Of a stretch of 35,263 nucleotides of DNA, positions 9,301 to 28,551 are shown one piece after another. Within the stretch, counting starts at the first letter, position 1. Every line of letters begins with the position of its first letter. The notes under the pieces were generated by a model. It did not search any database. It saw nothing but the letters and a program-made list of their open reading frames with translations, and was not told the origin of the DNA. The stretch covers positions 1 to 35,263 of the forward strand of contig JALVTX010000144.1 in the NCBI GenBank assembly GCA_027035825.1. The letters run 5' to 3'. This DNA comes from Mariprofundaceae bacterium. Its GTDB lineage: Bacteria > Pseudomonadota > Zetaproteobacteria > Mariprofundales > Mariprofundaceae. The position numbers were made by a program, and so were the translations under genes.

Positions 9301-12300
9301 TGGCGCTGGATGTGCAGAAGGCTCTGGATGCGGCTTTTGGAGCCAATGTGGTGAAGGCTTCCTACAATGGCAGTCGCATTATTCTGGAGGCGGTGAATCC
9401 GGCGAATACGACGAATGCCGCGGGGGTGACCACCAGCGTCAGTCGAGCCATCGAAGTGGGCGCGGCCTTGGGGAATACGGCCTACACGGAAATGGGATTG
9501 CCGCCCGCCACGCTTGCAAGCAATGCGACATTCAATGTGACGGTGACGACGCCTTCAACTGGCGCGAAGGCGAGCAAGGCCATCACGGTCACGTCTGGAA
9601 CTACTGGAACCAACAAAACCATTGCCGATCTGACCGCCGACGTGCAGGCGGCGCTGGACATGGCATTTCATGGCCAGTTGCGCGGTGGGGCCATCGCGCT
9701 GGGGCTCGGCCCGAATCCCTCGCCGGTTGATTTCAACGCGCTGATGGCGCGGGATCAGACCTTCCAGATGCAGGTTCAGGGTGTCGCCAATCCGGTTCAG
9801 GTTACGTTGACGGCTGCTGCTGGTAACGGCGTTTTGTCCACGCTCAGGACAAATCTGCAAACCGCCGTGACGAATGCCGTCAACGCGGCCATTGCGGCCG
9901 GAAATATTCCCGCGGGCACGGTGGTGACGGTAAGCCTGAACGGCGACGTGGTGTCGTTGACGGCCAGGGACGCCGCGGGGAATCCCCTGAACGTGAGCGT
10001 GCTGCAACCGGACGTGGTTGCATCGCATCAGGGCGGGCGCATCGTCCTCAACGCCACGCCGACGACGAAGACGACCAGCACGACGAACGCCAGCGGCGTG
10101 ACCGTCACGAGCACTACCAGCGTGCCCCGCGAGTTGAGCGTGACGGCCTTGCCAACGGATTCCGCCTATGCGGTGCTGGGGCTGTTGAATTATCCCACGC
10201 CGGCCAATGGCCAGCTTTCCGGCGACGCCGAGTTCAATATCAAGATCAATGGCGTGAACCATGCGGTGATCGTGACGGCGGCGAACACGAATGGGGCAGC
10301 TCCCGGAACGACGGCCAACGTCTCCATCGCGGATTTGGTGGCCGATGTCAACGCGGCGCTCGCGAACGCCGGCATCGGCGGCCAGGTCAGGGCGGTTCAG
10401 GTGAAGGATTCCGGCGGCAATCTCACCAATGCCTTGGGTTTTGAGTCCATCGCGGGGGCGGGCGTCAACAGTCTGGTGATCTCCGTGCCGAAATACCTGA
10501 GCGGCAGCGGCGTCACCGCCGGGGCCAGCAATAACGCGGCCGTGAACGAGCTTGGCTATGATCCGAATGCGGACATTGTGCAGAAAGGCCGCGCCACCGA
10601 CTTCTTCGTGGACAAGGCGGCGCTTTCCGGAACCGTGACATTCGACATGAGCAAGATTTCCGGTTCGGCACACTTCGGATTCCTTGGCGTGGACATGGCC
10701 AGTTCCGCGGGCGATGCCATCAGCGGAACGGCAAGCCTGAATCTGGTGAACCCGACGGCCCTGGGCGGCGGAAGGCGCGTGTTACTGTCCACGCTGGTCA
10801 GCCATCTCAAGAGCGGGACGATTCGCGACGTGGTGACGGGCAGCCTCAAGGGCAACGTCAACGTGAATTTGGTGCTGACGCCGCAGGCCGGCTTTTTCAC
10901 GGGCGCTGTTCCCCAAGCCCGGTTCAGCATCGGCCTGTCCAGTTTCGACTGGCTGAACAACAGGGTCATCAACACGGGAACGCCGACGGCGGGTCAGCTG
11001 AAGGTGAATACGAACCTGAGCATGATTTCCGGCCAGCTCAGCGATTTCACCAATTTCAGGCACATGGGATTCGCCGACATCATCGCGGCGCTGAATCAGG
11101 CGGTGAATTATCTGCACCAGACCGAGGGCACCACGGCGGGAGGCGGCTCGGCAGGGTCGGCCCTGGTGGGGCTGCTGGACAAGAAGATTCCCGTGATCGA
11201 CCAGAGCGCGACCGACCTTATCGGGTTGGCGGACAGGTTCGCGCGGGTCGTGACCCAGCTTCAGAATCAGCAGGCCGATTCGATTCAGGCGGCGGATCGG
11301 TTCATCAAGCAGGCATTGGGCCTGCCGCTGTTCCAGGCGGGAACGACCACGCCGACCGCGCCCGTGATTCGCTTTGACACGTCGATTATCGGCACGCAGA
11401 CGCTTCGTCTGGATTTGCCGTTCACGGTGTCCCTGAACAAGCATGTGCCGCTCGTTCTCGACCTGGCGCAGCTTGGCAGCCTGGCGGGCGTGACGTTTCC
11501 TTTGAAAATGAAGAAGTTCGTCGGCGTCAGTTCCACCGGCGATCTGAACCTGAGCGCCACGGCCACGTTGAATCTGGCTCTTGGCATGGAGATTGTCGGC
11601 ACGGGCGCCAGCGTGACATTCACGCCATTCCTCTACACCGGCGCGGGCAATACGAAACTGGACTTCACGGTGGCGGCCACCGGGACGAATCTCAATTTTA
11701 CCGCCCAGGCGGGGCCGTTCGGCATTCATGTCATCAATGGCTCGGCCAGCGCCAGCGAGGGCATTTCGTTCACCATGAAGGATGCGACCGGAACCGGACG
11801 GCATCTGTTCTCGGCCGGATTCTCCGCGGCTGACTTCAATGTCGGCGCGCCCACGGGCGCGGCCAGCGCCTCATTGCCCACTTTCTTCCCCAGCGCGTCC
11901 ACGCCCATTGGCGGCGCGGGCAACAATCTGTTCACCCTTGACGTGAAGTCGGTGAATGGATTGTTTGACCAGGTGTCGTTCCCGAAGGTGCCTTCCTTCG
12001 GCGGCCTGGTTGCGCTTACGCCGTTGGGCATGTTGAGTAATCCGGCAATCCTGATTGACGGTCTGGATATGCTGCTGCTCACCCTTCAGGATGCGCTCAA
12101 TTCGCAGGTGTTGAATGCCAGTTTGCCGTTTGTCGGCCAGGCATTGGAGCCGGCGTCGCAGTTTATTTCCGGCTTCCGCACCGATGTGTTGGCGCCGCTC
12201 AGCCTGAATCTCCGCGCCGCGGGCGGCTCGGCCGACCAGATCGTCGCCAACACATTGTTCAATGTGTTCGGTTCCGCGGCTGATGGCGCGGTCAAGCAGT

Positions 12301-15300
12301 TCGGCCTTGGTCAGCTTGGTTATCTCCAAGATATCAACGGTGATGGGGTGGTGAACCGGAATGATATCCAGACCAGCGGGTTCGGCCTGACGGATACATT
12401 CGGGCAGTTTGATTTCGTGATTGGCGACACCTATTGGGTGAAGGCGCCGACAGGGTTTGACCTTGGCGTTCCCGGGTTCAATCTCAGCATCGACGCCAAT
12501 GTGCTTCTTTCCATTGACTGGAGCATCCGCTTCAGCTTCGGCGTGGACCAGAACAAGGGGTTCTACTTCTACACCTCGAACAACAAGCCGGTGGTGCAGT
12601 TCAACAACATCAAGGGCGGCAATGAACTGCTGCCGGGGGGCACGCCGTTCGCCCAGCCCAATGAAATCAACATTACGGCGACGGCGCAACTGGTGTCCCG
12701 CAATTACACTGGGCCATCCAGCGGCACGGGCCCGTTGCCGGTCAGCGCCACGCCGGCCAGCGCCACAGGCACGCTTGGATTCCTGAAGCTGAAGTTGACG
12801 GATGGAGCGGGAACGGCCAAGAAGATTGCCAATGAAACCACGGCCAGCAACAAGACCCGCGTGGTGGCCGGGTTCTCCGTGGATGTGAAGGATCCGAACA
12901 ACGATGGATTCCTGACGTTTGCAGAAATGACGGCGCCATCCACGTCGTTTTCCAGCCTCCTGTCCACCACGAAGTCTGGCGGTGCGTTCCTCGGCCTGAA
13001 AACCAGGGTGGATTTCAGCGGCCTGAACATCAACCCGATTCCAGGCGTCAGCTTGGCCTCGCTATTGCCGAGCATGAGCTTTGATTTCGCCGGGCAATGG
13101 GATTTCTCCAGGAATTTCCAGATCAAGAAACCGACCGCGTTGGGTGGCGCTCTGGTTTCCCTCCAGTTCCAGAATATCCAGATGGATGCGGGTTCGCTCA
13201 TCAAGGGCTTCATCGGCCCATTCCTGGATCAGATCAAGGTTACCATCGGCCCGCTGGACTGGCTGCTAGGGCCGACGGGCATGCTGAACATGCGAATCCC
13301 GATGATTTCCGACCTGATGGGGCGGAGCATCAACCTGAATACGCTGGCCTCATGGTTTGGCACGGCCAAGTTTCAGGCCTTGCTGGATACCATTCAGAAC
13401 ATTTACAACCTCATCAGCATGGCGGCGAAGCTGCCATCCGCCGGGCTGGGAAACATCGGGTTCGGCAGTATTGATTTTTCCGGAATTGATTTCACGAATG
13501 TGAAGAACTTGAGTTTGCTGATTCCCAGCATGACCAATCCTCTGGTGGCGAACGAAACCACGATGAATTCACAAGCCAGAGGCTTTGTGGCTTCCGCAAG
13601 AGGCGGTGGCATCACGCTGGATATTCTGAAAGCAAGCAATGTGTTCCAGTTGTTGCTGGGCAAGCAGGACGTGAATCTGATTACGTTCAATCTGCCGAAG
13701 GCATCGCTGGCCTTTAACTATCTCCAACGTTTCCCGATATTCCCGCCTCTGTTTGCCACGCTGCAAGGCGGCTTCTCGGCCTCGGCCGATCTGGCCATAG
13801 GTTATGATACGCGCGGTCTGGCACAGTTTGGCGTTTCCCATAATCCGAACGCGCTCATCAATGGCTTCTTCTTCCACGATCTGAATCTGACCACCGGCGT
13901 GGATCAGCCCGAGGCAGTGTTGAACGGTTCTATTGCCGCCGGAGCGCAGATTTATGGAGGCATCGTTTCAGCTGGCGTGGCGGGTGGCATCAACGCGCAC
14001 GTGAATTTCAACTTCAATGATCCCAACCGCGATGGCAAGGTGCGCTTGGGCGAGATGGCGGCCAACATGCAGGCCAATGGCAATAATCCGCTGGCGATTT
14101 TCGATATCAGCGGCGCCGTGGACTGGTTCTTCCGGGCCTACGCGAAGGTGGGGGTCACCGTCTTTGGAAAATTCATCGGTTGGCAGAAATCATGGAATCT
14201 CGGTGGCGGCACGATCTTCAATTTCAATATCGGCTTTGCCCGGCCCGGCGTGGCGGCGCAAAAGGTGGGCTCTGAATTATGGGTAAATGTCGGCCCGAAC
14301 GCGGCCGACCGCATTCAGGGCAATGTGTCCGATATCAACGAGCATGTAAAAGTGAGCCTAGGAACCGGCCTTCATGCCGGGCAATACCATGTGCAGGTGC
14401 TCAATCGCGATACTGGCGCCATGTTGGCGGACAGCTATTTGTCCACTGCTGGCGTCAATAAGCTGGTGATTGACGGCGGCGCGGGCAATGACTGGATTGA
14501 AGTGAATGGCATTACCAAGCCGATCGAAGTGCATGGCGGCACGGGCGACGACACCATTACCATTACCGGCGCGACGGTTGGATTGAATGCCACGACGAAC
14601 AAGCCGCAAATCAATGTGTTTGGCGATGATGGAAATGACACGATTAATCTTGCCGGCAGTTCGGGGGCGGCGCTGATTCGCGGCGGCAAGGGGAACGATA
14701 CGATTACAGGCGGCTCCGGCGCGGATCAGCTCTATGGCGAGGGAGGCAATGACACGCTGAATGGCGGCGCGGGCAACGATCAGCTGACCGGCGGCTTGGG
14801 CAATGACAGGCTGGCTGGTGGCTCGGGGAACGATACGTATTTCTTCGCCAACAACTTTGGCAAGGATGTCGTGAATGATGCGGGGGGAACGGGCGATACC
14901 TGGGACTTCTCCAAGGTGACCACGGACATCAATTTCACGCTGAATGCATCGGGAACGAAGGCGGAGGTAACGACCAGTAAGGGCACCGTGACCGACAGCG
15001 TGACCGAGCAGATGAATTTGCTGGCCGTGGAGAATCTTCTGGGCAGCAGGGGCGCGGATACCTTCGATGTGTTTAATGTGGGCGCGAACAACCTGACGCT
15101 GAATGGCCAGGGCGGATCGGACACCTATATCATGAATGCGCCGTTAACTACGGCGGGCGGGCAGGTCGTCCTGAATGACACCGGCAACCTTTGGGACAGG
15201 GATGCGCTGGTGACCAAGGGAACGGCGAGTGGAGACGCATTCACGGTGACCGATCAGTCCATCACGATTGGGGTTGGGCTTAATGCAAGCTCAGTGAATT

Positions 15301-18300
15301 TCGGCACGGGCGGCGGCATCGAAACGATGGAAGTGCTCGGGTTTGGCGGCAACGATACCTTCAATGTCCTGGCCACGCCGAAAAGCATGAGCGTGACGCT
15401 GGATGGCGATGCGGGTGCGGATGTATTCAACATCGGGACTTCAAATGCCGGGTTTGTGCTGAATGGTGGTGCGGGCGCCACGGTGTTTGGTCTCAACGGC
15501 ATCCAGGGTAATCCGCAGCTTACAGGCAACCTTTTCATCAAGGGCGGTAGCGCCGCCGCGGGCACGCCCGTGGAGACCGATGTTCTGAACGTCTCCGATG
15601 CATTCGATGCGACCGCCAACACGGGCGCCATGACCGACAGCCTGATCACGGGCCTTGGCATGCAGGTCGGGATTGATTATGCGACTATTGAAACATTGAA
15701 CATTTTGCTGGGCTCCGCTGCAGATACCTTCACCGTGCAGAATACGATGGGCGGAACCACGAATGTGTTCGGAAACAATGGATCCGACATTCTGGATGTC
15801 CGGAACGCGGCGGGAGTGTTCATGGCGGACGGCGGCGCTGGCGCCGATGTAATTACCCTGCATTCCACCGCCTTGGCGACGAACGCGACATTGCTGGGGA
15901 AGGCCGGCAACGATCAATTGAACGTGCTGGCCGCCGCCGGGCCGACGGCGATTGGCGGCGGGACTGGCAATGATGTTGTGACGCTTGGCAGCAAGGCGCC
16001 GCTGGCGACGGGTGGAGTGGTTGACAACATATCGGGCCTGGTGACGGTGAGCGGCGACGCGGGCCAGGATGTTCTGAACGTGGACGACAGCGGCGATGCC
16101 AAGGGCAACGCGGGAGTTCTGACGGGGACGAGCCTGACGGGCTTCGGGATGGCGAAGGGCGTGCGGTATGGCACGGTGGAGACGCTGAATCTGAACCTTG
16201 GCGGCGCTGCGGACATGCTCACCGTGCAGAGCACGATGGGTGGTTCGACGAACGTATATGGCAATGGCGGATCGGATGTGATTGACATACGCAGCGCTTC
16301 GGGCGTGTTTGTGTCGGATGGCGGAGCTGGCGCTGATGTGATGACGCTTCATTCGTCGGTTTTGGGTTCGACGGTGACGATGCTCGGTCGGGGGGGGGCG
16401 GATCAGTTGAATGTTCTGGCCGCGTCTGGCGCGACGATCATGGACGGCGGCGCGGGCAATGATGTTGTGACGCTTGGGAGCTTGGCTCCGCAGACGCAGG
16501 GCGGGGTTGTTGACAACATTTTGGGCCTGGTGACGGTGATTGGCGGAGCCGGTCAGGATGTTTTGAACGTGGATGACAGCGGCGATGCCAAGGGCAACAC
16601 GGGTGTTTTGACGGGAACGAGCCTGACGGGTCTCGGGATGGCGAAGGGTGTGCAGTATGGCACGGTGGAGACGCTGAATCTGAACCTTGGCGGCGCTGCG
16701 GGGGCGGTGAGCCAGCTGGATATTCGTGGCACGAGCGCGTTGACGAATGTGGTTGGGGGCTTGGGCGGCACGACGTTCAATGTCAGCTCGGATGCTCCGA
16801 TGAACGCGGGCATTCTTGATGGCATTCAGGGTGTTTTGAACATTACGTCCAATGGCGCGGATACGTTGAACATCAGCGATCTGGGTCGTGTGTTGCCGGA
16901 CACGGTGACGATATCCAGTCAGACGGTGACGGGTCTTTCGCATGCGGCCATCAACTATTTTGAGGGCTTGGGCCGCTTTTCTGGCGGGATTAACATCAAT
17001 ACGGGTCAGGGCGCTGATGCGGTGACGGTTCTGAGCACGTTGGCGGGTGACGTCACATCCCTGTGGACGAATGGCGGATCGGATGTGATTGACATACGCA
17101 GCGCTTCGGGCGTGTTTGTGTCGGACGGCGGCGCGGGCAATGATGTTGTGACGCTTGGGAGCTTGGCTCCGCAGACGCAGGGCGGGGTTGTTGACAACAT
17201 TTTGGGCCTGGTGACGGTGATTGGCGGAGCCGGTCAGGATGTTTTGAACGTGGATGACAGCGGCGATGCCAAGGGCAACACGGGTGTTTTGACGGGAACG
17301 AGCCTGACGGGTCTCGGGATGGCGAAGGGTGTGCAGTATGGCACGGTGGAGACGCTGAATCTGAACCTTGGCGGCGCTGCGGGGGCGGTGAGCCAGCTGG
17401 ATATTCGTGGCACGAGCGCGTTGACGAATGTGGTTGGGGGCTTGGGCGGCACGACGTTCAATGTCAGCTCGGATGCTCCGATGAACGCGGGCATTCTTGA
17501 TGGCATTCAGGGTGTTTTGAACATTACGTCCAATGGCGCGGATACGTTGAACATCAGCGATCTGGGTCGTGTGTTGCCGGACACGGTGACGATATCCAGT
17601 CAGACGGTGACGGGTCTTTCGCATGCGGCCATCAACTATTTTGAGGGCTTGGGCCGCTTTTCTGGCGGGATTAACATCAATACGGGTCAGGGCGCTGATG
17701 CGGTGACGGTTCTGAGCACGTTGGCGGGTGACGTCACATCCCTGTGGACGAATGGCGGCAATGACGTGGTGACCGCATCCAGCACAGCCGCCAATGGGCT
17801 TCTCATCGTTTTCGGAGGCGAGGGAAGCGATACGGTGAATGCCTCCTCGTGGAACCGGGGGATGGTGGCTTTTGGCGATTACGGCATGGTGCAGTACGCG
17901 GGCTCTGTTCGTAGGCCGGATAGCATTGTTGCCGCCAGTTCGCTCAATCCGGGTTCGGGCGGCAATGACGTCTTGTCCGGGGGAAGCGGCAACGATGTTC
18001 TGATTGGGGGCTTTGGGAACGAGGTATTGTCCAGCGGACGGGGGAATGATGTTCTGATTGGCGATTCCGGCGAGGTGTTGTTTGTCAATGGACGCTTCTC
18101 TCAGGCATCCACTACCGATTTTTTGGTTGGCGGGGCGGATACGCTAATCAGCGGAGCCGGCAACGATGTGCTGCTCGGCGGCTTCGGGAAGGATGTGTTC
18201 ATCGGCAATCTTTCGCGGGACGTGATGATTGGCGACAATGGGCGCATCACGATGCACAATGGCAAGGTGACGACCGTGGTGACGTTCGCCCAGGCGCCGC

Positions 18301-18830
18301 AGGATGTGATTGCATCAACCCTGTTCCACCTCTATGACAGCCCGTATGCTGATGTCGCGGTTACATTGCCGCGCGCGCCTCTTGACCTGATCCTGGGGGC
18401 GAGGCAAGAAGCGCCGGGCGCTCAGAGCGCAACGCCGGCGAGCGACAGGCGGGACATGGTTGGCGAAAGCAGTTATCTCGGCATGGGCGGAGACTCGTTC
18501 ATCAAGCGGGAACCAACCGCCGGCAAAGCGGCGGATCGGGGATTGGAGGTGGAAAAGTTCGCCATGATGGCTCAATCTGCGCATGGCGGGGGGCGGATGC
18601 TCGCGGCAAACCCGCATGCGTCCGGAGCGAGCGAAACAGTTTCGGCGCCACATGTTCGGCAGGCCGAGGGCGATGCCGCCGGTCATGCGTGGCCGGGCAT
18701 GTTGCTGGCCGCATGCGCTGGCTGGAAGACTGTCCGACGGGGGCGTGCGCGAAACCGGACTGTTCGGGTGAATTTCGCGGGCGGAAAGAAGGCCGGCAGA
18801 CCCTCGGCGAGAGTGAACTGGGGCTCTTGA
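6348..18830 (+). CDS. Giant (4160 aa) DUF4347-domain / RTX-repeat secreted repeat protein (putative T1SS-type adhesin)
   Basis: Single uninterrupted 12.5-kb ORF. N-terminus ...[14 protein letters not shown] is followed by a DUF4347-like domain. A ~2400-aa Ala/Gly/Thr/Ser/Asn/Val-rich, almost Cys-free region contains divergent modules. A hemolysin-type GGxGxD nonapeptide block and tandem beta-helix-like modules follow, then more degenerate GGxGxD repeats near the C-terminus. Confidence 0.93.
   Translation: [4160 protein letters not shown]
6621..7082 (+). other. DUF4347-like N-terminal domain of the giant protein (aa ~92-245)
   Basis: [20 protein letters not shown]...[48 protein letters not shown]...[40 protein letters not shown]...GDWNLEY. 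This is the pattern I associate with DUF4347 at the N-terminus of very large repeat proteins. Recognition is from memory, not from a search. Confidence 0.7.
14474..14835 (+). repeat. Hemolysin-type Ca-binding (RTX) nonapeptide repeat block
   Basis: [85 protein letters not shown], i.e. consecutive GGxGxDxL/I/x units. Confidence 0.9.
15732..16709 (+). repeat. Two divergent tandem 489-bp (163-aa) modules inside the giant gene
   Basis: Anchor strings recur at a 489-nt offset: accgtgcag at 15732 and 16221; ttgacaacat at 16021 and 16510. Protein level: [19 protein letters not shown]...[65 protein letters not shown] versus [19 protein letters not shown]...[65 protein letters not shown]. A more degenerate copy lies upstream (~15540-15731). 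Confidence 0.75.
16263..17758 (+). repeat. 100%-identical direct duplication: 807-bp unit (16263-17069) followed by a 681-bp copy (17070-17750) lacking 126 bp
   Basis: Compared line by line: 16442-17077 equals 17123-17758 (636 bp, offset 681, no mismatch seen), and 16263-16318 equals 17070-17125 (56 bp, offset 807). The second copy lacks 42 codons ([42 protein letters not shown]) between two DGGAG motifs. The identical antisense ORFs in the track (16553-16825 and 17234-17506) reflect the same repeat. Confidence 0.95.
17951..18250 (+). repeat. Degenerate C-terminal GGxGxD-like repeats of the giant protein
   Basis: [44 protein letters not shown] ... [40 protein letters not shown]. Confidence 0.7.
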
Positions 18831-18870: not shown

Positions 18871-19212
18871 ATGACAAAGCAGACGGCTGACAGCCAGACG
18901 GAGGCACAAGGTCAAACCGAGCCCAAGGTGATTTGGGATGACTCGGAGATGGTGAGCAGCTATGCCAATGTGGTGAACGCGACCAGCACGCGCGAGGAGT
19001 TCATGGTGTTTTTCGGCGTCAACCAGACTTGGAATCCAGCGCAGGCGGAGGTCGCGATCAAGCTGACCAATCGCATCGTGATGAGCCCCTTTGCCGCCAA
19101 GCGACTGAGCTTGATTCTGGCCAACGTTTTGCGCGAATACGAGGCCAATTTCGGCACGATCCCGCTGGATTTGCAGACCGTCCAGGAAACGGGGCGCGAG
19201 CAGCCGAACTGA
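18871..19212 (+). CDS. Small cytoplasmic protein, DUF3467-like (113 aa)
   Basis: ATG at 18871 is preceded by AAGGAG (18858-18863) with a 7-nt spacer, the best SD in the block. No signal peptide. The core YANVVNATSTREEFMVFFGVNQ...IKLTNRIVMSPFAAKRLSLILANVLREYEANFG resembles the DUF3467 pattern (Y.N...I.....EF.LDFG...V.RIVM.P..AK.L...L...I..YE..FG) as I remember it. Confidence 0.6.
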   Translation: MTKQTADSQTEAQGQTEPKVIWDDSEMVSSYANVVNATSTREEFMVFFGVNQTWNPAQAEVAIKLTNRIVMSPFAAKRLSLILANVLREYEANFGTIPLDLQTVQETGREQPN

Positions 19213-19235: not shown

Positions 19236-21059
19236 GTGATGAAGGTTGAGGAAGGACGGGAGTCCTTCGAATTTCTGGATGCGGATGAGTGGCGGTCGCT
19301 CGCGGCCGCCGTTCCCGTGGGAGATTTCGCTTATTCTTGGTTGAATATCCTTTGCAGGATGCTTCCCCACGCACGAACCGGCGTGGTGGTGGTGCTGACG
19401 GATGGAGAATTCTCCGTTCTCGCGCAATGGCCGGAGCAAGGCGCGGATGTCCCCCGCGCGCTTCGGGATGTCGTGGAGGCGGCGCTCGATGAGAGAACCG
19501 CCACCATCCTTCGAGAGGCAAACGCCTCAACAACCGCCATGGCTTATCCGATCTTTTCCGCGGACGAGATCCATGCCGTGGCGGGGCTGCTGATGGCGGA
19601 CGCCTCGCCGGTGCAGATTCAGAGCGCGATGCGCCTCATGCAATGGGGCGGAGGGTGGTTGCAGTCCCGCGGCGCACGCGAAGCCGGGATGGAGACGGAT
19701 GAACGGGCGTTGTCCATTCTGTCCGCCGTGCTGGAGAGGCAATCCTTTTGGGAAGCCGTTCATGCGCTGGTGACGGAACTTGCGCTTGCCTGGTCATGCG
19801 AGCGCGTTTGCTTTGGGCGCTTGCGCAAGAACGGCGAGGCCAGACTGGAAGCGACGTCATTCCAGTCCGATTTCGATCGGAGGACGCGCCACACTCGCGA
19901 GATCGAAACGGTGATGGATGAGGTGCTTGCCGAAGGCGAGGCCATCCGATGGCCCGAGGACGATGCGGATGAATTGCTCATTGCCCATCGGCAATACGCC
20001 AAATCGCGCGGAGCTGTCTTTCTGCTGGGTTTCCCCGTGTTCGTGAATCAACGCCCGTGGGGCGTGTTGCTCCTGGAGAGGGATGATCGGCCGTTCTCGG
20101 AACGTGAGAAGAACGCGATAGCCGTTGTCTGCGACCTGGTCGGACCGTGGCTGAAGCTGACGGCCGAGGCGGGGCAATCGTTGCCATCGGTCGCCCTTCA
20201 GCGGTTCCGGCGGCAGTGGAGCAGGTTGTTCGGCTCCGGTTATTGGCTGCGCAAGGCGTTGGTCGCGGGGCTGAGCGTCGCGCTGCTGGCGCTTGCGGCG
20301 GTTCCGGGCGAATTCCGAATTGGCGGCGAGGCCACGCTGGAGGGGCTCTCGCAGCGTATCGTCGCCGCGCCATTCGATGGCTATGTTGACAAGGCATTTG
20401 TCCGGGCCGGAGATCGGGTGAAAAAGGGGCAGGCGCTTTGCCGCATGGATGAGCGGGATTTGCGCCTGGAGGAGAGCAAGTGGCTTTCCAAGCTGGCCGA
20501 GGCGAGAGACGCGTACCGGAAGGCATTGGCGGATCGGGACAAGGTGAAGATCCGCGTGGGTCAGGCGCGGGTTCGGCAAGCCGAGGCGGAGCTGGCGCTC
20601 GTGCGGAGGAAATTGTCTCGCATGGTGCTTCGGGCGCCCTTCGACGGTCTGGTGGTGAAAGGCGACTTGAGCCAGGCGCTGGGCAGCCCGAAACGCAAGG
20701 GGGAGGAGCTTTTCACGATTGCCCCGGTCAACCAGTACAGGGTGGCCGTGTTTATCCCGGAATACGATGTGGCGAACGCCGCCATTGGGCAGGCGGGAGA
20801 ATTGAGGCTGGCCGCCATGCCCTCGCGCCCCTTGCGGGTGCGACTGGCCCGGTTGACGTCCGTGGCGGAGGTTAAGGACGGAATCAACACATTCCGGGCG
20901 GAAGCGATGCTTGTTCAAGGAACGAATCACGCGCATGCGCTGAGGCCAGGTCTGAAAGGCGTATGCAAGTTCATTGTGGATCGCCGCGCCATCGGATGGA
21001 TATGGTTCCATCATTTGTGGCAATGGCTGCGGTTGAAGTTCTGGGAGTGGACGCCCTGA
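19236..21059 (+). CDS. GAF-like (x2) cytoplasmic sensor, single TM helix, periplasmic HlyD/membrane-fusion adaptor
   Basis: 607 aa. The N-terminal ~320 aa has no TM helix and contains two GAF-like units (...GVVVVLTDGEFSVLAQWPEQ...AMAYPIFSADEIHAVAGLLM; ...CERVCFGRLRKNGEARLEATS...GFPVFVNQRPWGVLLLERDDRPFSEREKNAIAVVCDLV). TM helix LRKALVAGLSVALLALAAV. MFP hallmarks follow: biotinyl-lipoyl-like hairpin (IVAAPFDGYVDKAFVRAGDRVKKGQALCRMD...VLRAPFDGLVV) flanking a coiled coil, then a beta-barrel region. Starts at GTG 19236 or ATG 19239. Confidence 0.8.
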   Translation: MMKVEEGRESFEFLDADEWRSLAAAVPVGDFAYSWLNILCRMLPHARTGVVVVLTDGEFSVLAQWPEQGADVPRALRDVVEAALDERTATILREANASTTAMAYPIFSADEIHAVAGLLMADASPVQIQSAMRLMQWGGGWLQSRGAREAGMETDERALSILSAVLERQSFWEAVHALVTELALAWSCERVCFGRLRKNGEARLEATSFQSDFDRRTRHTREIETVMDEVLAEGEAIRWPEDDADELLIAHRQYAKSRGAVFLLGFPVFVNQRPWGVLLLERDDRPFSEREKNAIAVVCDLVGPWLKLTAEAGQSLPSVALQRFRRQWSRLFGSGYWLRKALVAGLSVALLALAAVPGEFRIGGEATLEGLSQRIVAAPFDGYVDKAFVRAGDRVKKGQALCRMDERDLRLEESKWLSKLAEARDAYRKALADRDKVKIRVGQARVRQAEAELALVRRKLSRMVLRAPFDGLVVKGDLSQALGSPKRKGEELFTIAPVNQYRVAVFIPEYDVANAAIGQAGELRLAAMPSRPLRVRLARLTSVAEVKDGINTFRAEAMLVQGTNHAHALRPGLKGVCKFIVDRRAIGWIWFHHLWQWLRLKFWEWTP

Positions 21060-21068
21060 CGAGGGAGC

Positions 21069-23217
21069 ATGGTGGAACGAACCTACAGTGAACAATGGCA
21101 TCGGGTGGAGCAGCTCAGGCCCCGGCTGGCCCCGCATGTTCATGTTGGAAGACAGCGGTTGCGAGGTCGGGAGTGGTTTGTCCTTCATGACGAGACGACG
21201 GGCAAATCCTTTCGCATGTCGCCGGAGGCATTTGAGGTGGTTCGTCGTTTCAACGGTCGCCGGAGCCTGGCCGACATTTGGGAGGGATTGCGATCGCCGG
21301 ACAATTCCGAGGACAGCGTAACATCCCAAGACGAGGTCATCCGCCTGCTGGGCCAGCTGCACAAGGCCGACATGCTGATCGTGGATGCCGCCGGCAATAT
21401 CACGGAACGCGTCCATCGGCGCCGGAAGCGAAAGCGGGACAAATGGGTTTCGCAACTGGCCAATCCGCTCGCCCTGCGGATTCCGCTTTTCGACCCTGAC
21501 CGGCTGTTGGGGCGCTTGATGTCCTTCTCCAGGCCATTGCTGGGCTGGGCGGGTCTTGCGGCATGGTGCGTCGCCATGGCGTGGCTCATTGTCATGGCCG
21601 GGGTGCATTGGGATGAATTGACCAGGAATATTGGCGATCGAATCCTTTCGGGCCAGAACATCATGCTGATGGCGGTTTGTTATCCACTCCTCAAGCTGGT
21701 TCATGAATTGGGACATGGCCTTTTGGTGAAGAAATGTGGGGGAGAGGTGCATGTGCTTGGCGTCATGCTGCTGGTCATGATGCCCGTTCCATATGTGGAT
21801 GCGTCGGCCGCTTCCGCCTTTCGTCTTGCCCGGCAGCGGGCGCTCGTGGGGTTGGCCGGCGTGATGGCGGAAACATGGATTGCGGCGGGCGCCATGTGGG
21901 TGTGGCTTCATGTGTCCGGCGGCGTCGTGCATGCGGCCGCCTACACCATCATGCTGTTGGTTCTGGTTTCCTCCTTGCTGTTCAACCTGAATCCCTTGCT
22001 TCGGTTTGATGCCTACTATGTCGTGAGCGATCTGCTTGGCATGCCGAACCTGGCGCAAAGGGCGAATGCCTATGCGGGATACCTGATGCGCCGCTATTTG
22101 TTCGGCGTTCGAAGCGCGCGAACTCCGGCCACGGGGCCGGGGGAGGAGGCATGGCTTCTGCTCTATGCGGTCGCATCGTTCGCATACCGCGTTTTTCTCT
22201 GCGGAGCGCTGACATATCTTCTTGCCGGGAAATATTTCGTGTTCGGCCTTGTATTGGCGGCATGGCTCGTGGTTGTCATGTTTCTGTTCCCCCTTGCGCG
22301 GTCTCTGAGGAATCTCTGGCTTGATCCGGAGATGCAGAAAAGGCGGGGAAAGGCGTTATCCATGCTGGGCGGCGGGGCTCTGGCCGGGTTTGTCGTTTTT
22401 TTCTGGATACCGTTTCCTCATTGGATGGTCGCGCAGGGCGTGATCTGGCCGCCCGAGGGCAGCAGATTGGTGGCGGGGGCCTCCGGCTTTGTCCGGGCAT
22501 TGCACGTCAAGGACGGGGAACATGTCCAAAGAGGCCAGTCCATTCTGGATATGGTCGCTCCCGAATTGAGGGCGCGTCAACGCATTCTGAAAGCGCAGCT
22601 TGAGGCGATGGCCGTTGAGCATAGGGACTCCATGCTGGGTGACAGGCTTGTCCACGCAAAGACCGCCCAGGAAATTAATCACTTGCGGGATCGCTTGCGC
22701 GATATCAATGACAGGATCTCCGCCTTGACGATTCTCAGCCGTCAATCAGGGGTGATGTATTTCAGGCTGCCATGGCGAGATTTGCCGGGACGTTATCTGC
22801 CCAAGGGAGCGTTGATTGGTCATGTGCTGGGCGCGGACGAGGCGCCGTTGGTTCGGGTGCTTGTTTCGCATGATCGAATCGAGGACTTTCTTGTCGGACT
22901 GAAAGGGGTGGAAGTGAGGCTTCCCCACGCCGAGGCGACATATCCGGCGCGCCTGATTCGCCTTCATCCCGAGGCATTGCGCGAAATTCCATCGCTTGCC
23001 TTGACCAGGGAAGGAGGCGGGGAAATCGATGCCGATATGCGCGACAAGACGCGTCCCGTCGCGGTGGAGCCCCTGTTTCAGCTGGACGTGAGCTACCCCG
23101 AGGCCGCCGGGTTTGCGCGCATCGGCGAGCGGGCGTACGTCAAGTTCCGGTTTGTTGACGCTCCGCTCGGGCAACGACTCCTGAAGTGGGTGCGAAGGAC
23201 GTTCCTGGGGCGTTCGC

Positions 23218-23225
<8 letters not shown>
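21069..23225 (+). CDS. Fusion protein: cytoplasmic N-domain, ~9-TM M50 (site-2-protease-type) zinc metalloprotease, periplasmic HlyD/MFP adaptor
   Basis: 718 aa, ATG preceded by GAGGGAG. HExxH inside a TM helix (LKLVHELGHGLLVKK; HELGH at nt 21702-21716). Second M50 motif with the third Zn ligand (FNLNPLLRFDAYYVVSDLLG, nt 21990-22016). I count about nine hydrophobic helices. The C-terminal part has MFP hallmarks (VAGASGFVRALHVKDGEHVQRGQSILDM, coiled coil ...RARQRILKAQLEAMAVE...DRLRDINDRISAL, then ILSRQSGVMYF). Confidence 0.82.
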
Positions 23226-25172
<1,947 letters not shown>

Positions 25173-25176
<4 letters not shown>

Positions 25177-25943
25177 AGGGGTGGCGACGCGGATGCGCGC
25201 TGTTGGGCATTCTTCTCGCGCAAGGATCTACGGCGATAGGGAAGGAGTATGACTGTGTCATAGCCCCTCACCGAATCGTCAAGGTCAGCGCGGCGGCACC
25301 AGGGGTGATTCGCAAGGTGAACGTGGAACGCGGCGATCGTGTCCGCAAGGGGAGCGTGCTGTTTCAACTCGACGCAAGGGTGCGCGAGGCGGAAACGGCG
25401 CTGGCCAAGGTGAAAATGGAGTACGCCCAACGCGAGGTCAGACGCAATCTGGGAATGCGGAAGGAAGACCTCATTTCCGAAAGCAAGATGGATGAATTGA
25501 GGAATCGCCTGGCCCTGGCCAAGGCCGAACTCCGGGTGGCCCAGGCCAGGCTCGCGCAATACACCGTTCGCAGTCCCATCGACGGGGTGGTGCTCGAGCA
25601 ACATCATTTTGCAGGCGAGTTCGTCCGCGAGGACTATGTGCTCAAATTGGCGCAAACCAATCCCTTGAACGTGGAAACCGTTTTGCCGGCTGCGGTCGCG
25701 CTGGGATTGCGTCCCGGGGAGCGAGTCCCGGTATTGCTGGGGCCTCGCGGGGAGGAACGCGCCGGAGAGGTGCGCATCGTTGAGCCTGTCATTGATTCCG
25801 CCAGCGGCACGGTTGGAGTCCAGCTTCGTCTGGAGAACGCGCAAGGCGCGGTGCGAGCAGGCGCGGCGTGTCGCATTCGACTTGATGACGGCGGAAAACA
25901 TGAGAGCGGTTTGGTTCAAGATGGGGCGGGCGTCAGCCAATGA
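25173..25943 (+). CDS. Small HlyD/membrane-fusion-family periplasmic adaptor (256 aa)
   Basis: I take the start as ATG 25173 (MKGWRRGCALLGILLAQGSTAIG..., signal or anchor). It is preceded by GGAGGAAG (25161-25168) and overlaps the SecA-like stop (ATGA). MFP hairpin: VSAAAPGVIRKVNVERGDRVRKGSVLFQLD...coiled coil...TVRSPIDGVVLE, then a beta-barrel-like region (AGEVRIVEPVIDSASGTVGVQLRLEN). The track ORF begins earlier (25107), inside the SecA-like gene. Confidence 0.8.
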
Positions 25944-27784: not shown

Positions 27785-28444
27785 TTGAGCAAGCCATCGA
27801 ACAAGCCGAACAAGAAGGCCGCCGGCAAGCAGCAGGGCAAGGCCTCGCCGGAAGCGCCGGAGCGGCAGGCGGCGGAAGCGGAGGCCCTCGAAGAGCCCTT
27901 GGAAGAACAGGCGGGCGGGGACGAGGAGCTCCGGAAGGAGCTGGCCGAGGCGCGCGAGGAAATCGAGCGGCTGAAGGACAAGCTGCTGCGCGCCCATGCC
28001 GAGATGGACAACCTGCGCAAGCGCACCGAGCGGCAGATCGAGGAGGCGCGCAAGTACGCCATCGAGAAGTTCGCCCTGGCGCTCTTGGACGTGGTGGACA
28101 ACCTGGAGCGGGCGCTGGCCGTGGAAGAAGGCAACGAGGCCGCGCTGCGCGAGGGGCTGAAGATGACGCTGGATGCCTGGCACGCGGTGATGCGCAAGTT
28201 CGAGATGGAGCGCATTGACGCCGTGGGCCAGCCGTTCGACCCGCATCATCACGAGGCGTTGTCGCACATGCCGAGCGAGGAGCATCCCGAGGGCGTGGTG
28301 GCGGCCCAGCACGTGGCGGGCTACAAGCTCAGCGGCCGGCTGCTGCGGCCGGCGAGGGTGCTGGTTTCCTCCGGCGCGCCGGGCGGGGGCGACGAGCAGG
28401 AACAGAAGGAAAACGAGGCGCCGCCGAAGTCCGACAAGGCGTAG
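27785..28444 (+). CDS. grpE: Nucleotide exchange factor GrpE
   Basis: 219 aa. TTG start 7 nt after AGGAG (27773-27777). LKDKLLRAHAEMDNLRKRTERQIEEARKYAIEKFALALLDVVDNLERAL...FDPHHHEAL...V.AQHVAGYKLSGRLLRPARVLVS. Confidence 0.93.
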   Translation: MSKPSNKPNKKAAGKQQGKASPEAPERQAAEAEALEEPLEEQAGGDEELRKELAEAREEIERLKDKLLRAHAEMDNLRKRTERQIEEARKYAIEKFALALLDVVDNLERALAVEEGNEAALREGLKMTLDAWHAVMRKFEMERIDAVGQPFDPHHHEALSHMPSEEHPEGVVAAQHVAGYKLSGRLLRPARVLVSSGAPGGGDEQEQKENEAPPKSDKA

Positions 28445-28461
28445 GCCGGCGCGGGTTCAGG

Positions 28462-28488: not shown

Positions 28489-28551
28489 AGAGAGTGAGCG
28501 GAACAAAACAGGAAGAAAACCGGAAACAAACCAAACAACGGGAGAAGCGAC

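What the first reader, a model, noticed from the sequence alone, without database searches (positions are those of the whole stretch)
21069..23225. Site-2-protease-type M50 domain fused to a periplasmic HlyD adaptor, with a ~110-aa cytoplasmic N-domain resembling a PqqD/RRE-like peptide-binding module
Seen:
- HELGH lies within a TM helix.
- NPLLRFDAYY provides the third Zn ligand, so the catalytic set looks complete.
- About 9 predicted TM helices would place the N-terminus in the cytoplasm and the C-terminal MFP hairpin and coiled coil in the periplasm.
- The N-terminal segment (WHRVEQLRPRLAPHVHVGRQRLRGREWFVLHDETTGKSFRMSPEAFEVVRRFNGRRSLADIWEGL...VIRLLGQLHKADML) has the 'short beta strands plus helix; x-DG-x-R-[ST]-[LV]-x-[ED]-[IL]' feel of PqqD-like leader-peptide recognition elements. 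That is my inference only.

A protease that is itself an adaptor to an outer-membrane channel suggests cleavage coupled to export or release. The substrate could be a leader or anchor segment of the giant protein or of another cargo.
Basis: partly seen in the sequence, partly recalled or inferred. Interest (0 to 1): 0.7.

Follow-up and report, generated by a model that had tools for sequence, protein, structure and literature searches.

The report
Leader-reading protease fused to secretion adaptor
This gene encodes one membrane protein that joins a peptide-recognition module, a membrane-embedded zinc protease and a periplasmic secretion adaptor, and it sits in a widespread, undescribed gene cassette that most likely recognises, trims and exports giant surface proteins carrying a conserved N-terminal "LEPR-XLL" tag.

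Summary
ORF 21069-23225(+) encodes a 718-aa protein with three parts:
- a cytoplasmic PqqD/RRE domain, supported by Pfam, a PDB profile hit, and an AlphaFold/Foldseek match to leader-bound lasso-peptide RREs;
- a site-2-protease (S2P) core with invariant HExxH and NPLLRFD motifs;
- a complete HlyD/MacA-type periplasmic adaptor.

Topology is N-in, 7 TM, C-out (not ~9 TM).

The RRE-S2P half is homologous to the daptide leader peptidase DapP/MpaP, so that pairing is known. The fusion to an adaptor and its context appear undescribed.

The family is large: over 3,500 clusters at 50% identity and at least 542 species. In 80 genomes the gene is flanked by a GAF-adaptor (72/73), a truncated SecA-like ATPase (66/70) and a small adaptor (56/67). 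It usually sits next to a giant protein. Every visible giant N-terminus (13/13, plus four fragments found separately and a distant Variovorax variant with ALEARYMFDAA) carries a basic stretch followed by LEPRxLLSAD. The cassette contains no ABC, RND or MFS transporter.

Best reading: the RRE binds the LEPR-XLL leader, the S2P removes it, and the SecA-like motor with the adaptors and TolC exports the giant protein. Cleavage and export are inferred, not shown.

The parts
21069..23225 (+). Whole gene: RRE + S2P/M50-type protease + HlyD-type adaptor, 718 aa
   Evidence: ORF. 2,726 full-length homologues. AF2 model has mean pLDDT 88.7 and pTM 0.72.
21120..21383 (+). Cytoplasmic PqqD-like RiPP recognition element (RRE), residues ~18-105
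   Evidence: PF05402 E=0.0017 over the full profile. 31/60 aligned sequences hit PF05402. PDB profile hit to PqqD 3g2b. Foldseek hits to leader-bound lasso RREs 6jx3_B, 5v1v and 5v1u with TMt 0.73-0.74.
21399..21461 (+). Basic juxtamembrane helix (residues 111-131, RRRKRKRDK), marking the cytoplasmic side
   Evidence: AF2 helix 111-131; sequence.
21498..22322 (+). Six-helix site-2-protease core (residues ~144-418) with a re-entrant beta-hairpin at 230-243
   Evidence: NF041824 daptide intramembrane metalloprotease, E=6.5e-42 over residues 18-407. PF02163 hit in 33/60 aligned sequences. Secondary structure.
21702..21716 (+). HELGH zinc-binding/catalytic motif (H212, E213, H216) in TM2
   Evidence: (invariant in 60 sequences).
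21990..22019 (+). NPLLRFDAYY motif, with D314 as the presumed third zinc ligand
   Evidence: N306, N308, L310, R312, D314, Y316 invariant.
22344..22403 (+). TM7 (residues 426-445), equivalent to the single membrane anchor of a classical HlyD-type adaptor
   Evidence: The family profile (positions 417-515 of alignment A1) aligns to HlyD 8dck_C residues 51-154.
22407..23222 (+). Periplasmic adaptor (lipoyl domain, alpha-hairpin 498-551, beta-barrel 582-699)
   Evidence: Foldseek hits to MacA 3fpp (7.8e-10), MexA, ZneB, EmrA, AcrA and CusB. PDB profile hit to MacA-MexA chimera 4dk1 (8.8e-8).
6348..18830 (+). Giant 4,160-aa protein (LEPR-XLL leader, DUF4347, RTX repeats): the presumed cargo
6429..6497 (+). 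LEPR-XLL N-terminal motif of the giant protein (residues 28-50; core LEERLLLSAD at 33-42), the presumed RRE-binding leader
   Evidence: NF012209 scores 24.9 bits against a cut-off of 17. The same motif is at 13/13 visible N-termini of cassette-linked giants.
4999..6351 (+). TolC-family outer-membrane channel; its stop overlaps the giant gene's start
   Evidence: TIGR01844 scores 234.6 bits against a cut-off of 225. PF02321.
18871..19212 (+). DUF3467 protein, 113 aa (possible chaperone/accessory)
   Evidence: PF11950 E=2e-20. Present upstream in 33/68 loci.
19236..21059 (+). GAF-domain + single TM + HlyD-type adaptor, 607 aa
   Evidence: TM 337-360. Adjacent upstream in 72/73 loci.
23218..25176 (+). 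Truncated SecA-like ATPase, 652 aa (NBD1, PPXD, NBD2; no wing domain, two-helix finger or C-tail); its start overlaps the target's stop by 8 nt
   Evidence: Adjacent downstream in 66/70 loci.
25173..25943 (+). Small HlyD-type adaptor with a signal-peptide-like N-terminus; ATGA overlap with the SecA-like stop
   Evidence: Within 6 kb in 56/67 loci.

Best explanation
**What the protein is.** The gene encodes the core inner-membrane subunit of a dedicated secretion and processing machine for giant LEPR-XLL proteins.

Architecture (shown by sequence and structure prediction):
- a cytoplasmic RRE/PqqD domain;
- a six-helix site-2-type zinc metalloprotease whose active site lies near the cytoplasmic leaflet;
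- a seventh helix leading into a full periplasmic membrane-fusion-protein module.

It is made from a translationally coupled operon: TolC, giant protein, DUF3467, GAF-adaptor, this protein, a truncated SecA-like ATPase and a small adaptor.

**Proposed mechanism (inferred).**
1. The RRE captures the N-terminal leader of the giant protein, which is a basic stretch followed by phi-phi-E-x-L-E-P-R-phi-L-L-S-A-D. Binding would be as an added beta-strand, as RREs bind RiPP leaders.
2. This positions the leader at the S2P active site, and the leader is cut off.
3. The SecA-like motor, which keeps its preprotein clamp but lacks the SecY-docking elements, feeds the unfolded chain N-terminus first.
4. 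The three adaptor paralogues form the periplasmic duct to TolC.
5. RTX repeats fold outside the cell.

The logic parallels peptidase-containing ABC exporters (leader recognition, cleavage and export in one machine), but it is built from different parts.
For: **Domains**
- NF041824 RRE-S2P daptide leader peptidase, E=6.5e-42.
- PqqD hits.
- RRE fold by Foldseek against leader-bound RREs.
- Invariant HExxH and NPxxRFD motifs.
- Adaptor fold.
- 7 TM helices with positive-inside topology.

**Precedent for function.** In daptides, an RRE fused to an S2P is described as an 'RRE-dependent intramembrane peptidase' that removes the leader peptide (PMC10028931).

**Synteny in 80 species genomes**
- GAF-adaptor adjacent in 72/73, SecA-like in 66/70, small adaptor in 56/67.
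- A giant same-strand ORF within 10 kb in 30/39 full-flank loci.
- The same gene order in RefSeq plasmids, one giant being annotated 'LEPR-XLL domain-containing protein'.

**Leader motif**
- NF012209 hit on the window's giant protein.
- The motif is found at 13/13 visible giant N-termini and in 4/4 DUF4347 fragments fetched independently (one N-terminally truncated in its gene call).
- One of those fragments lies right behind a full cassette.
- A 27%-identical Variovorax variant keeps giant + TolC + adaptors + M50-HlyD. Its giant starts with a basic stretch followed by ALEARYMFDAA.

**Operon structure**
- Gene overlaps of 4-8 nt and gaps of 9-40 nt leave no room for a hidden precursor ORF.
- No ABC, RND or MFS transporter lies between TolC and rpsP.
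- The SecA-like protein aligns to E. coli SecA residues 34-658 only, so it lacks most of the scaffold, the wing and the two-helix finger.
Against: - There is no experimental or structural evidence here that the RRE binds the LEPR-XLL motif, or that the leader is cleaved.
- Classical S2P substrates are transmembrane helices, and the LEPR-XLL leader is not hydrophobic. RiPP S2P-like peptidases do cut non-TM leaders, however.
- No obvious inner-membrane protein-conducting channel is identified. The 7-TM domain acting as a conduit is speculation.
- The giant protein has RTX repeats, the hallmark of C-terminal-signal T1SS cargo, so an unlinked ABC exporter could be the true transporter.
- 9/39 full-flank loci show no ORF of at least 1,200 aa within 10 kb.
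- 3-4 loci, and the Variovorax variant, lack an adjacent SecA-like gene, so that motor is not universal.
- The query itself falls below Pfam gathering scores for PqqD (19.1 vs 23.4) and M50 (15.7 vs 27.2).
- Foldseek on the full model returned only adaptors, so the S2P fold was not independently confirmed.
Confidence: 0.55

Rival explanations
1. Two-step route. The SecA-like ATPase works as an accessory SecA that drives the giant protein through the housekeeping SecYEG channel, using LEPR-XLL as an atypical signal. The S2P domain acts as its dedicated signal/leader peptidase. The adaptors and TolC carry out only the outer-membrane step.
For: - The ATPase is clearly SecA-derived, with an intact Walker A (GEGKT), a DEAD motif and a preprotein-binding domain.
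- Accessory SecA2 proteins that use SecYEG are established knowledge.
- No dedicated inner-membrane channel is visible in the cassette.
Against: - The protein lacks most of the scaffold, the wing domain and the two-helix finger, which in canonical SecA dock onto and insert into SecY (role of these elements from established SecA-SecYEG structures).
- The leader has no hydrophobic core.
- The protease active site and the RRE are predicted on the cytoplasmic side. This fits recognition before translocation rather than after it.
Confidence: 0.15
2. The cassette matures and exports a small product instead: the DUF3467 protein or an unannotated peptide, in RiPP/bacteriocin style. The giant protein would be only a frequent neighbour exported by another system, such as a classical T1SS acting through its RTX C-terminus.
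For: - RREs and RRE-S2P fusions are so far known only from RiPP pathways (PMC10028931).
- DUF3467 genes recur next to the cassette, in 33/68 loci.
- One locus (L005) has extra DUF3467 genes together with a radical SAM enzyme and a methyltransferase.
- The giant protein carries RTX repeats.
Against: - By tblastn, DUF3467 is detected in only about half of the loci, whereas giants are more constant.
- DUF3467 shows no LEPR-like motif.
- Intergenic gaps in the window are 9-40 nt, so there is no room for a hidden precursor.
- A conserved 10-14-residue motif at the extreme N-terminus of every linked giant needs an explanation.
- No RiPP-modifying enzymes are conserved in the cassette.
Confidence: 0.1
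3. The protease is a release or clearance device rather than a leader peptidase. It would cut a membrane-proximal segment of the giant protein, for example the short hydrophobic-plus-Arg patch near some C-termini, or clear stalled cargo from the duct. This would control shedding versus surface retention.
For: - About one third of the giants' C-termini, including the window's (AWPGMLLAACAGWKTVRRGRARNR), have a short A/G/L patch ending in GW followed by a K/R cluster.
- S2P enzymes classically cut membrane-embedded segments (established knowledge).
- LapG-type release proteases exist for T1SS adhesins (established knowledge).
Against: - The C-terminal patch is absent from most giants and is too short for a TM helix: no segment passes a hydropathy threshold.
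- This reading leaves the RRE and the universally conserved N-terminal motif unexplained.
Confidence: 0.08
4. Regulated intramembrane proteolysis. The S2P domain cleaves a regulator, such as an anti-sigma-like factor, to couple the state of the secretion apparatus to gene expression.
For: - This is the classical S2P role (RseP, SpoIVFB; established knowledge).
- A hybrid histidine kinase and a LuxR-type response regulator lie next to the operon in the window.
Against: - No sigma or anti-sigma gene is present in the cassette, and the kinase/regulator pair is not conserved in other loci.
- The closest sequence relatives are RiPP leader peptidases, not RseP: hhalign to RseP aligns only the HExxH stretch, with probability 27%.
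Confidence: 0.04

Closest known systems
Daptide leader peptidase DapP/MpaP (NCBIfam NF041824; Ren et al. 2023, PMC10028931)
   Same: An N-terminal RRE is fused to an intramembrane HExxH site-2-type metalloprotease. Homology runs over residues 18-407 (E=6.5e-42). The published role is RRE-dependent removal of an N-terminal leader.
   Different: - The score of 144 bits is far below the equivalog cut-off of 300.
- No daptide genes (precursors ending in Thr, aminotransferase, dehydrogenase, methyltransferase) are present.
- This protein has an extra TM helix and a 270-aa periplasmic adaptor.
- The presumed substrate is a 4,000-16,000-aa protein, not a peptide of about 50 aa.
- The hosts here are almost all Gram-negative (diderm) bacteria, whereas daptide clusters were found in Actinomycetota and Bacillota.
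Type 1 secretion systems for giant RTX adhesins (HlyB-HlyD-TolC; LapA/LapBCE type)
   Same: A TolC channel works with HlyD-type adaptors that have an N-terminal membrane anchor. The profile aligns to HlyD 8dck. The cargo is a giant, RTX-containing, repeat-rich protein encoded next to the transport genes.
   Different: - No ABC transporter is in the cassette.
- There are three different adaptor paralogues instead of one.
- The ATPase is SecA-derived.
- The conserved signal is N-terminal (LEPR-XLL) rather than C-terminal.
- One adaptor is fused to a protease.
Peptidase-containing ABC transporters (PCATs; C39 protease fused to a bacteriocin exporter)
   Same: The functional logic matches: one membrane machine recognises an N-terminal leader, cleaves it on the cytoplasmic side and exports the cargo (established knowledge; an analogy only).
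   Different: The parts are unrelated: a cysteine protease and an ABC transporter there, versus RRE + zinc S2P + adaptor + SecA-like ATPase here. There is no sequence homology.
SecA-like domains embedded in giant proteins of Omnitrophota and Actinobacteria (West-Roberts et al. 2023, bioRxiv 10.1101/2023.11.21.568195)
   Same: SecA DEAD and preprotein-binding domains that lack the scaffold/wing part are associated with giant proteins. The authors proposed a role in exporting the giant protein itself. The neighbour gene here has the same truncation.
   Different: There the SecA-like module is part of the giant polypeptide, and no TolC, HlyD or M50 partners are mentioned. Here it is a separate 652-aa protein, translationally coupled to the protease-adaptor.
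Stand-alone RREs of lasso-peptide pathways (TbiB1, B1 proteins) and PqqD
   Same: The winged-helix fold is the same (three strands then three helices): Foldseek TMt 0.73-0.74 with probability 1.00, and a profile hit to PqqD 3g2b.
   Different: Those are small soluble proteins that hand leaders to modifying enzymes. Here the domain is tethered to a membrane protease-adaptor, and an extra conserved N-terminal segment (residues 7-23) is present.

Membership tests
PqqD / RiPP recognition element (PF05402) | Sequence match to the PqqD profile | tested here: inconclusive
   The query scores 19.1 bits, E=0.0017, over the full profile 1-67, but below the gathering score of 23.4. 31/60 aligned sequences match at E<=1e-3, best 3.9e-9. 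The family profile hits PqqD 3g2b at E=0.0037. RefSeq names homologues 'PqqD family protein'.
PqqD / RiPP recognition element (PF05402) | Winged-helix fold: three-stranded sheet followed by three helices | tested here: met
   The AF2 N-domain model has strands at 24-31, 34-41 and 47-50 and helices at 52-58, 67-74 and 87-99. Foldseek hits 6jx3_B, 5v1v and 5v1u (TMt 0.73-0.74), plus LynD and CteB.
PqqD / RiPP recognition element (PF05402) | Binds a leader peptide as an added strand next to beta3/alpha3 | not testable with these tools
   There is only indirect support. Invariant or near-invariant residues lie on beta3 (R49) and alpha3 (Q87, L93, L94, L97, H98) and just after it (D101). The linked giants carry a conserved candidate leader.
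Site-2 protease / peptidase M50 | HExxH within a transmembrane helix | tested here: met
   HELGH at 212-216 lies inside helix 195-222. H212, E213 and H216 are invariant.
Site-2 protease / peptidase M50 | Second motif supplying an Asp ligand (NPxxxxDG-type) after a later TM helix | tested here: met
   N306-x-N308-P-L-L-R-F-D314, invariant, directly after helix 286-306. The metal geometry itself was not measurable because no coordinates were returned.
Site-2 protease / peptidase M50 | Significant match to the family profile or fold | tested here: inconclusive
   - PF02163: query E=0.0099, 15.7 bits against a cut-off of 27.2.
- 33/60 aligned sequences match, best E=7.3e-7.
- NF041824 E=6.5e-42 and NF058609 E=1.1e-5.
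- hhalign to E. coli RseP aligns only the HExxH stretch, probability 27%.
- Foldseek on the full model listed only adaptors.
Daptide biosynthesis protease (NF041824 equivalog) | Score above the equivalog cut-off, and a daptide gene cluster around it | tested here: not met
   The score is 144 bits against a cut-off of 300. No daptide-type enzymes or precursors are in the window or in related loci.
Membrane fusion protein / HlyD-type periplasmic adaptor | Lipoyl domain + alpha-helical hairpin + beta-barrel, preceded by a membrane anchor | tested here: met
   AF2 shows TM 426-445, lipoyl strands, a hairpin at 498-521/526-551 and a barrel at 582-699. Foldseek hits MacA 3fpp (7.8e-10), MexA and EmrA. 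The profile hits MacA-MexA chimera 4dk1 (8.8e-8) and HlyD 8dck (1.3e-6).
Membrane fusion protein / HlyD-type periplasmic adaptor | Periplasmic location and partnership with a TolC-family channel | tested here: inconclusive
   Topology is predicted as C-out. TolC is in the same operon in the window and in L011, L073, L079, L082, L086 and L095. Physical contact was not testable.
Type 1 secretion system | ABC transporter as the inner-membrane energising component | tested here: not met
   No ABC transporter lies between TolC (4999) and rpsP (26014), nor in the cassettes of L001-L005, L086 and L087.
LEPR-XLL domain proteins (NF012209), for the presumed cargo | N-terminal LEPRxLL motif scoring above the cut-off | tested here: met
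   24.9 bits against a cut-off of 17, at residues 28-50 of the 4,160-aa protein.
Canonical SecA / SecA2, for the neighbouring ATPase | Full domain set, including scaffold, wing and two-helix finger, and a score above the equivalog cut-offs | tested here: not met
   The best NCBIfam score is 528 against a cut-off of 814. The alignment to E. coli SecA ends at about residue 658. No SecA wing/scaffold Pfam hit was found.

The most novel reading that the evidence does not exclude
The cassette is a previously unrecognised envelope-spanning secretion pathway for giant proteins. It would be distinct from T1SS and from Sec.
- An N-terminal LEPR-XLL leader is read by an RRE. This would be the first RRE found acting on a secreted protein rather than a RiPP.
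- The leader is cut by the fused intramembrane S2P.
- The chain is pushed N-terminus first, possibly while still being translated, by a truncated SecA motor.
- It passes through a duct built from three adaptor paralogues and TolC, with no ABC transporter and no SecYEG.
Probability: 0.35. Interest if true: 0.95.

Novelty: new variant of a known kind. Interest (0 to 1): 0.8.

Why it matters
How bacteria export proteins of 4,000 to more than 16,000 residues is poorly understood. The textbook route (T1SS) needs a C-terminal signal, so the whole protein must be made first.

This family suggests a different solution: an N-terminal tag read by a peptide-recognition domain borrowed from natural-product biosynthesis, joined to a membrane protease and a secretion adaptor, and paired with a SecA-derived motor.

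- It is widespread: at least 542 species representatives and thousands of sequence clusters, across Proteobacteria, Nitrospirota, Acidobacteriota and others, and on rhizobial and roseobacter plasmids.
- It occurs in cultivable strains (Pseudomonas, Vibrio, Rhizobium, Methylobacterium, Marinobacterium), so it can be tested directly.
- It would give a function to the LEPR-XLL tag, to DUF3467 and to a class of truncated SecA proteins.
- It would correct inconsistent database names. The target's homologues are labelled 'PqqD family peptide modification chaperone' or 'peptidase M50', and the neighbouring SecA-like gene 'prepilin peptidase' or 'DEAD/DEAH box helicase'.
- It would extend RRE biology beyond RiPPs.

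Tried and rejected
1. **Foldseek on the full-length model.** Only adaptor structures ranked, so it gave no independent test of the S2P fold.
2. **hhalign of the family profile against E. coli RseP.** Only the HExxH stretch aligned, probability 27%; uninformative.
3. **C-terminal anchor as the S2P substrate.** The last 110 residues of 37 giants are not conserved. A short hydrophobic + K/R patch occurs in only about a third, and no TM segment passes a hydropathy threshold. This idea was demoted to a minor rival.
4. **Reciprocal test starting from the giant's N-terminus (LEPR-XLL + DUF4347).**
   - The search returned only short fragments of frameshifted or partial genes.
   - Of five looked up, one had the full cassette adjacent, one had TolC adjacent, one had a small adaptor, and two had nothing within 10 kb.
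   - The 10-kb flank is shorter than the giants, so the test is inconclusive.
5. **DUF3467 against PDB sequences.** No hit, so its role stays open.
6. **PADLOC scan for defence systems.** Nothing relevant.
7. **Promoter/terminator scan.** No internal terminators. The only notable site is a promoter-like match before rpsP.
8. **Literature.** Ten full-text searches found no description of the cassette. Terms included LEPR-XLL, DUF3467+SecA, DUF4347, PqqD+M50+HlyD, SecA-like+MFP+TolC, and RRE+TolC+SecA. The library covers open-access papers and bioRxiv only, so absence is not proof.
9. **Modelling the RRE-leader complex.** Not possible, because chimeric or multi-chain inputs are not accepted by the structure tool.


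Full report
**1. The observation**

The ORF at 21069-23225 (+) encodes 718 aa. HELGH lies at residues 212-216 and NPLLRFDAYY at 308-317. A homology search returned 2,726 proteins at E<=1e-5. Almost all are 711-721 aa, cover the whole query, and share 39-52% identity. An exhaustive HMMER scan of 1.84 billion cluster representatives found 10,774 hits at E<=1e-3 and 3,534 at E<=1e-30, and nearly all of the top 150 were full length. In an alignment of the query with 59 homologues, these residues are invariant: H212, E213, H216, N306, N308, L310, R312, D314 and Y316. The gene is real, and its catalytic set is under strong purifying selection.

**2. Three modules**

*N-terminal domain*
- Pfam PqqD (PF05402) matches residues 35-103 over the entire profile. 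At E=0.0017 it is below the gathering score.
- 31 of the 60 aligned sequences match it, best E=3.9e-9.
- The family profile hits the PqqD crystal structure 3g2b.
- An AlphaFold2 model of residues 1-140 (pLDDT 83.8) has three strands followed by three helices.
- Foldseek retrieves RREs solved with their leader peptides: lasso B1 protein 6jx3_B and TbiB1 5v1v/5v1u (target-normalised TM 0.73-0.74, probability 1.00). It also retrieves the RRE-containing enzymes LynD and CteB.

*Middle region*
- NCBIfam NF041824 (daptide intramembrane metalloprotease) matches residues 18-407 at E=6.5e-42, below its equivalog cut-off. The YydH/LiaK model matches at E=1.1e-5.
- Pfam M50 is matched by 33/60 aligned sequences.

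*C-terminal region*
- The full-length model (pLDDT 88.7, pTM 0.72) shows a lipoyl domain, a hairpin at 498-521/526-551 and a beta-barrel.
- Foldseek matches MacA, MexA, ZneB, EmrA, AcrA and CusB, with E down to 7.8e-10.
- The profile aligns to HlyD 8dck, including its membrane anchor.

**3. Topology**

The model has seven membrane helices: 160-179, 195-222, 254-281, 286-306, 359-388, 390-418 and 426-445. It also has a beta-hairpin at 230-243. The stretch RRRKRKRDK before TM1 and the K/R-rich loops 223-253, 307-358 and 419-426 indicate N-in, C-out by the positive-inside rule. This places the RRE in the cytoplasm. HELGH (late in the out-to-in helix 195-222) and D314 (just after the out-to-in helix 286-306) sit near the cytoplasmic leaflet. 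The adaptor is periplasmic. The architecture reads as an RRE, a six-helix S2P core and a complete single-pass HlyD-type adaptor.

**4. Surroundings in the window**

The window shows an insertion of about 23.5 kb between ffh (1135-2502) and rpsP (26014-). Its G+C content is lower than that of the flanks, 0.55-0.64 against 0.65-0.71. It contains:
- a hybrid histidine kinase;
- a LuxR-type response regulator on the minus strand;
- TolC (4999-6351);
- a 4,160-aa protein (6348-18830) with an N-terminal LEPR-XLL domain (NF012209, 24.9 bits against a cut-off of 17), DUF4347 and RTX repeats;
- DUF3467 (18871-19212);
- a GAF-TM-HlyD adaptor (19236-21059);
- the target gene;
- a 652-aa SecA-like ATPase (23218-25176);
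- a small adaptor (25173-25943).

Stop and start codons overlap or lie 9-40 nt apart. This implies one operon with translational coupling and leaves no room for a hidden small ORF. There is no ABC, RND or MFS transporter. The SecA-like protein aligns to E. coli SecA residues 34-658. It therefore has NBD1, the preprotein cross-linking domain, NBD2 and the beginning of the scaffold helix. It lacks the wing domain, the two-helix finger and the C-terminal tail.

**5. Conservation of the context**

They span Alpha-, Beta-, Gamma- and Deltaproteobacteria, Nitrospirota, Acidobacteriota, Rokubacteria, Flavobacteriales and Sulfurovum, and include many cultured strains.

| Feature in the 80 fetched loci | Count |
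|---|---|
| GAF-adaptor immediately upstream | 72/73 testable |
| SecA-like gene immediately downstream | 66/70 |
| Small adaptor within 6 kb | 56/67 |
| DUF3467 upstream | 33/68 |
| Same-strand ORF of at least 1,200 aa within 10 kb (full-flank loci) | 30/39 |

The giant ORF usually runs in from beyond the upstream end of the locus. Gene calls on metagenomic contigs show the same order, next to proteins of 4,000-10,000 aa. RefSeq plasmids of Methylosinus and Pontibrevibacter show giant (8,847 and 10,603 aa), DUF3467, adaptor, target, SecA-like, adaptor and, in Methylosinus, TolC. In those records and other plasmid hits the target's homologues are named variously 'PqqD family protein', 'PqqD family peptide modification chaperone', 'peptidase M50' or 'site-2 protease family protein'. 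The SecA-like gene is named 'prepilin peptidase' or 'DEAD/DEAH box helicase'. No system-level annotation exists.

**6. The candidate leader**

Wherever the N-terminus of a linked giant protein is visible (13 cases including the window), it has a K/R-rich stretch of 14-49 residues. This is followed by phi-phi-E-x-[LM]-E-[PEA]-R-phi-L-[LFM]-[SN]-A-[DTG], usually with Pro or Gly two to four residues later. Four further DUF4347 fragments found independently also carry the motif, one of them truncated at its annotated start. One of the four lies directly behind a full cassette.

A distant relative of the target (27% identity) in Variovorax paradoxus sits behind a 16,239-aa protein, TolC and two adaptors. 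It has no SecA-like gene nearby but is followed by a T2SS cluster. Its giant starts with a basic stretch followed by ALEARYMFDAA, and the N-terminus of its protease looks RRE-like by eye; no PqqD match was found. The link between the protease-adaptor fusion and LEPR-type N-terminal tags on giant proteins therefore extends beyond the immediate family. The leader has no hydrophobic core, so it is not a Sec signal peptide.

**7. Mechanism**

*Shown:* the domain architecture, the invariant catalytic residues, the predicted topology, the operon structure, the conserved synteny, and the conserved N-terminal motif on the neighbouring giants.

*Taken from the literature:* RRE-S2P fusions remove RiPP leaders. 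[quoted passage not shown]

*Inferred:*
- The RRE binds the LEPR-XLL leader in the cytoplasm.
- The S2P removes it at the inner face of the membrane.
- The SecA-like motor drives the unfolded chain.
- The three adaptor paralogues and TolC form the duct.

An N-terminal signal would allow export to begin before translation of a 12-50 kb gene is finished, which a C-terminal T1SS signal cannot do. This rationale is speculation. The main gaps are that the inner-membrane conduit is not identified, and that RTX repeats leave open a role for an unlinked classical T1SS.

**8. Rivals**
- A Sec-dependent two-step route, with the S2P as a dedicated leader peptidase.
- A small-peptide (DUF3467 or RiPP-like) cargo.
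- A release or clearance protease acting on a C-terminal patch.
- Regulatory intramembrane proteolysis.

The evidence for and against each is given in the Rival explanations section. None of them accounts as well for three facts together: a cytoplasmic RRE, an invariant N-terminal motif on the giants, and the protease being fused to an adaptor.

**9. Comparison with known systems, and novelty**

RRE fused to S2P is known from daptides. HlyD-type adaptors with TolC and giant RTX cargo are known from T1SS. Truncated SecA modules associated with giant proteins have been noted in Omnitrophota and Actinobacteria, without TolC, HlyD or M50 partners (bioRxiv 10.1101/2023.11.21.568195).

I found no description of four features:
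- the fusion of RRE-S2P to an adaptor;
- its fixed partnership with a stand-alone truncated SecA and two further adaptors;
- the absence of an ABC transporter;
- the link to the LEPR-XLL tag.

This rests on ten full-text searches. The library is limited to open-access papers and preprints.

The protein fails the equivalog test for daptide proteases, and the system fails the defining ABC-transporter test for T1SS. I therefore rate the protein as a new variant of known kinds. I give a probability of 0.35 that the whole cassette is a new secretion pathway.

**10. Verdict**

Interest is 0.8. All functional steps remain to be tested. Suitable cultured hosts and clear experiments are listed under the next steps.

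Noticed in passing
window 2514-25943 (flanked by ffh 1135-2502 and rpsP 26014-): The whole system, together with a hybrid histidine kinase and a LuxR-type regulator, forms an insertion of about 23.5 kb between ffh and rpsP, which are usually neighbours. Its G+C is lower than that of the flanks (0.55-0.64 vs 0.65-0.71). Relatives also occur on 15 plasmids, which suggests horizontal transfer.
   Followed up: partly
window 23218-25176 (+): A stand-alone SecA-like ATPase lacks the wing domain, the two-helix finger and the C-tail. In RefSeq, homologues in this cassette are named 'prepilin peptidase' or 'DEAD/DEAH box helicase'. The same truncation is reported for SecA modules embedded in giant Omnitrophota proteins.
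   Followed up: partly
window ~18630-18700 (giant protein residues ~4085-4110); also L003, L008, L013, L036, L042, L053, L056, L077: About a third of the giants have a short Ala/Gly/Leu patch ending in GW, followed by an Arg/Lys cluster, 40-70 residues before the C-terminus (window: AWPGMLLAACAGWKTVRRGRARNR). It is too short for a TM helix and its function is unknown.
   Followed up: partly
window 21111-21128 (target residues 15-20, QLRPRL; family consensus LRPRL with P18 invariant): The conserved extreme N-terminus of the protease superficially resembles the LEPRL core of the leader and forms a short strand (18-20) in the models. It could be a pseudo-substrate occupying the RRE groove, or the resemblance may be chance.
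   Followed up: no
L096/L097 (Variovorax paradoxus VAI-C, CP063167.1 1151-70500): A distant variant has this order: 16,239-aa 'tandem-95 repeat protein' with N-terminal ALEARYMFDAA, TolC, two adaptors, a 719-aa M50+HlyD protein, then a complete T2SS gene set. No SecA-like gene is present.
   Followed up: partly
L005 960-7892: In one relative, three small DUF3467 genes, a 705-aa DUF3467-containing protein, a radical SAM enzyme and a methyltransferase lie between the giant gene and the cassette. This hints at modification chemistry in some versions.
   Followed up: no
window 15678-17401: The giant gene contains internal direct repeats of about 300 nt. Copies at 16421-16720 and 17102-17401 are 97% identical, which gives recently duplicated protein segments.
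   Followed up: partly
window 28321-30627 (-): A 768-aa ORF antisense to dnaK matches Pfam PF10712 'NAD-specific glutamate dehydrogenase' at E=2.4e-196. The real gene on the + strand is dnaK (28552-30477), so this looks like a spurious antisense-ORF family.
   Followed up: no
window 19236-21059 (+): The upstream adaptor carries a cytoplasmic GAF domain before its membrane anchor, and this is conserved in 72/73 loci. That suggests small-molecule or nucleotide control of the machine.
   Followed up: no
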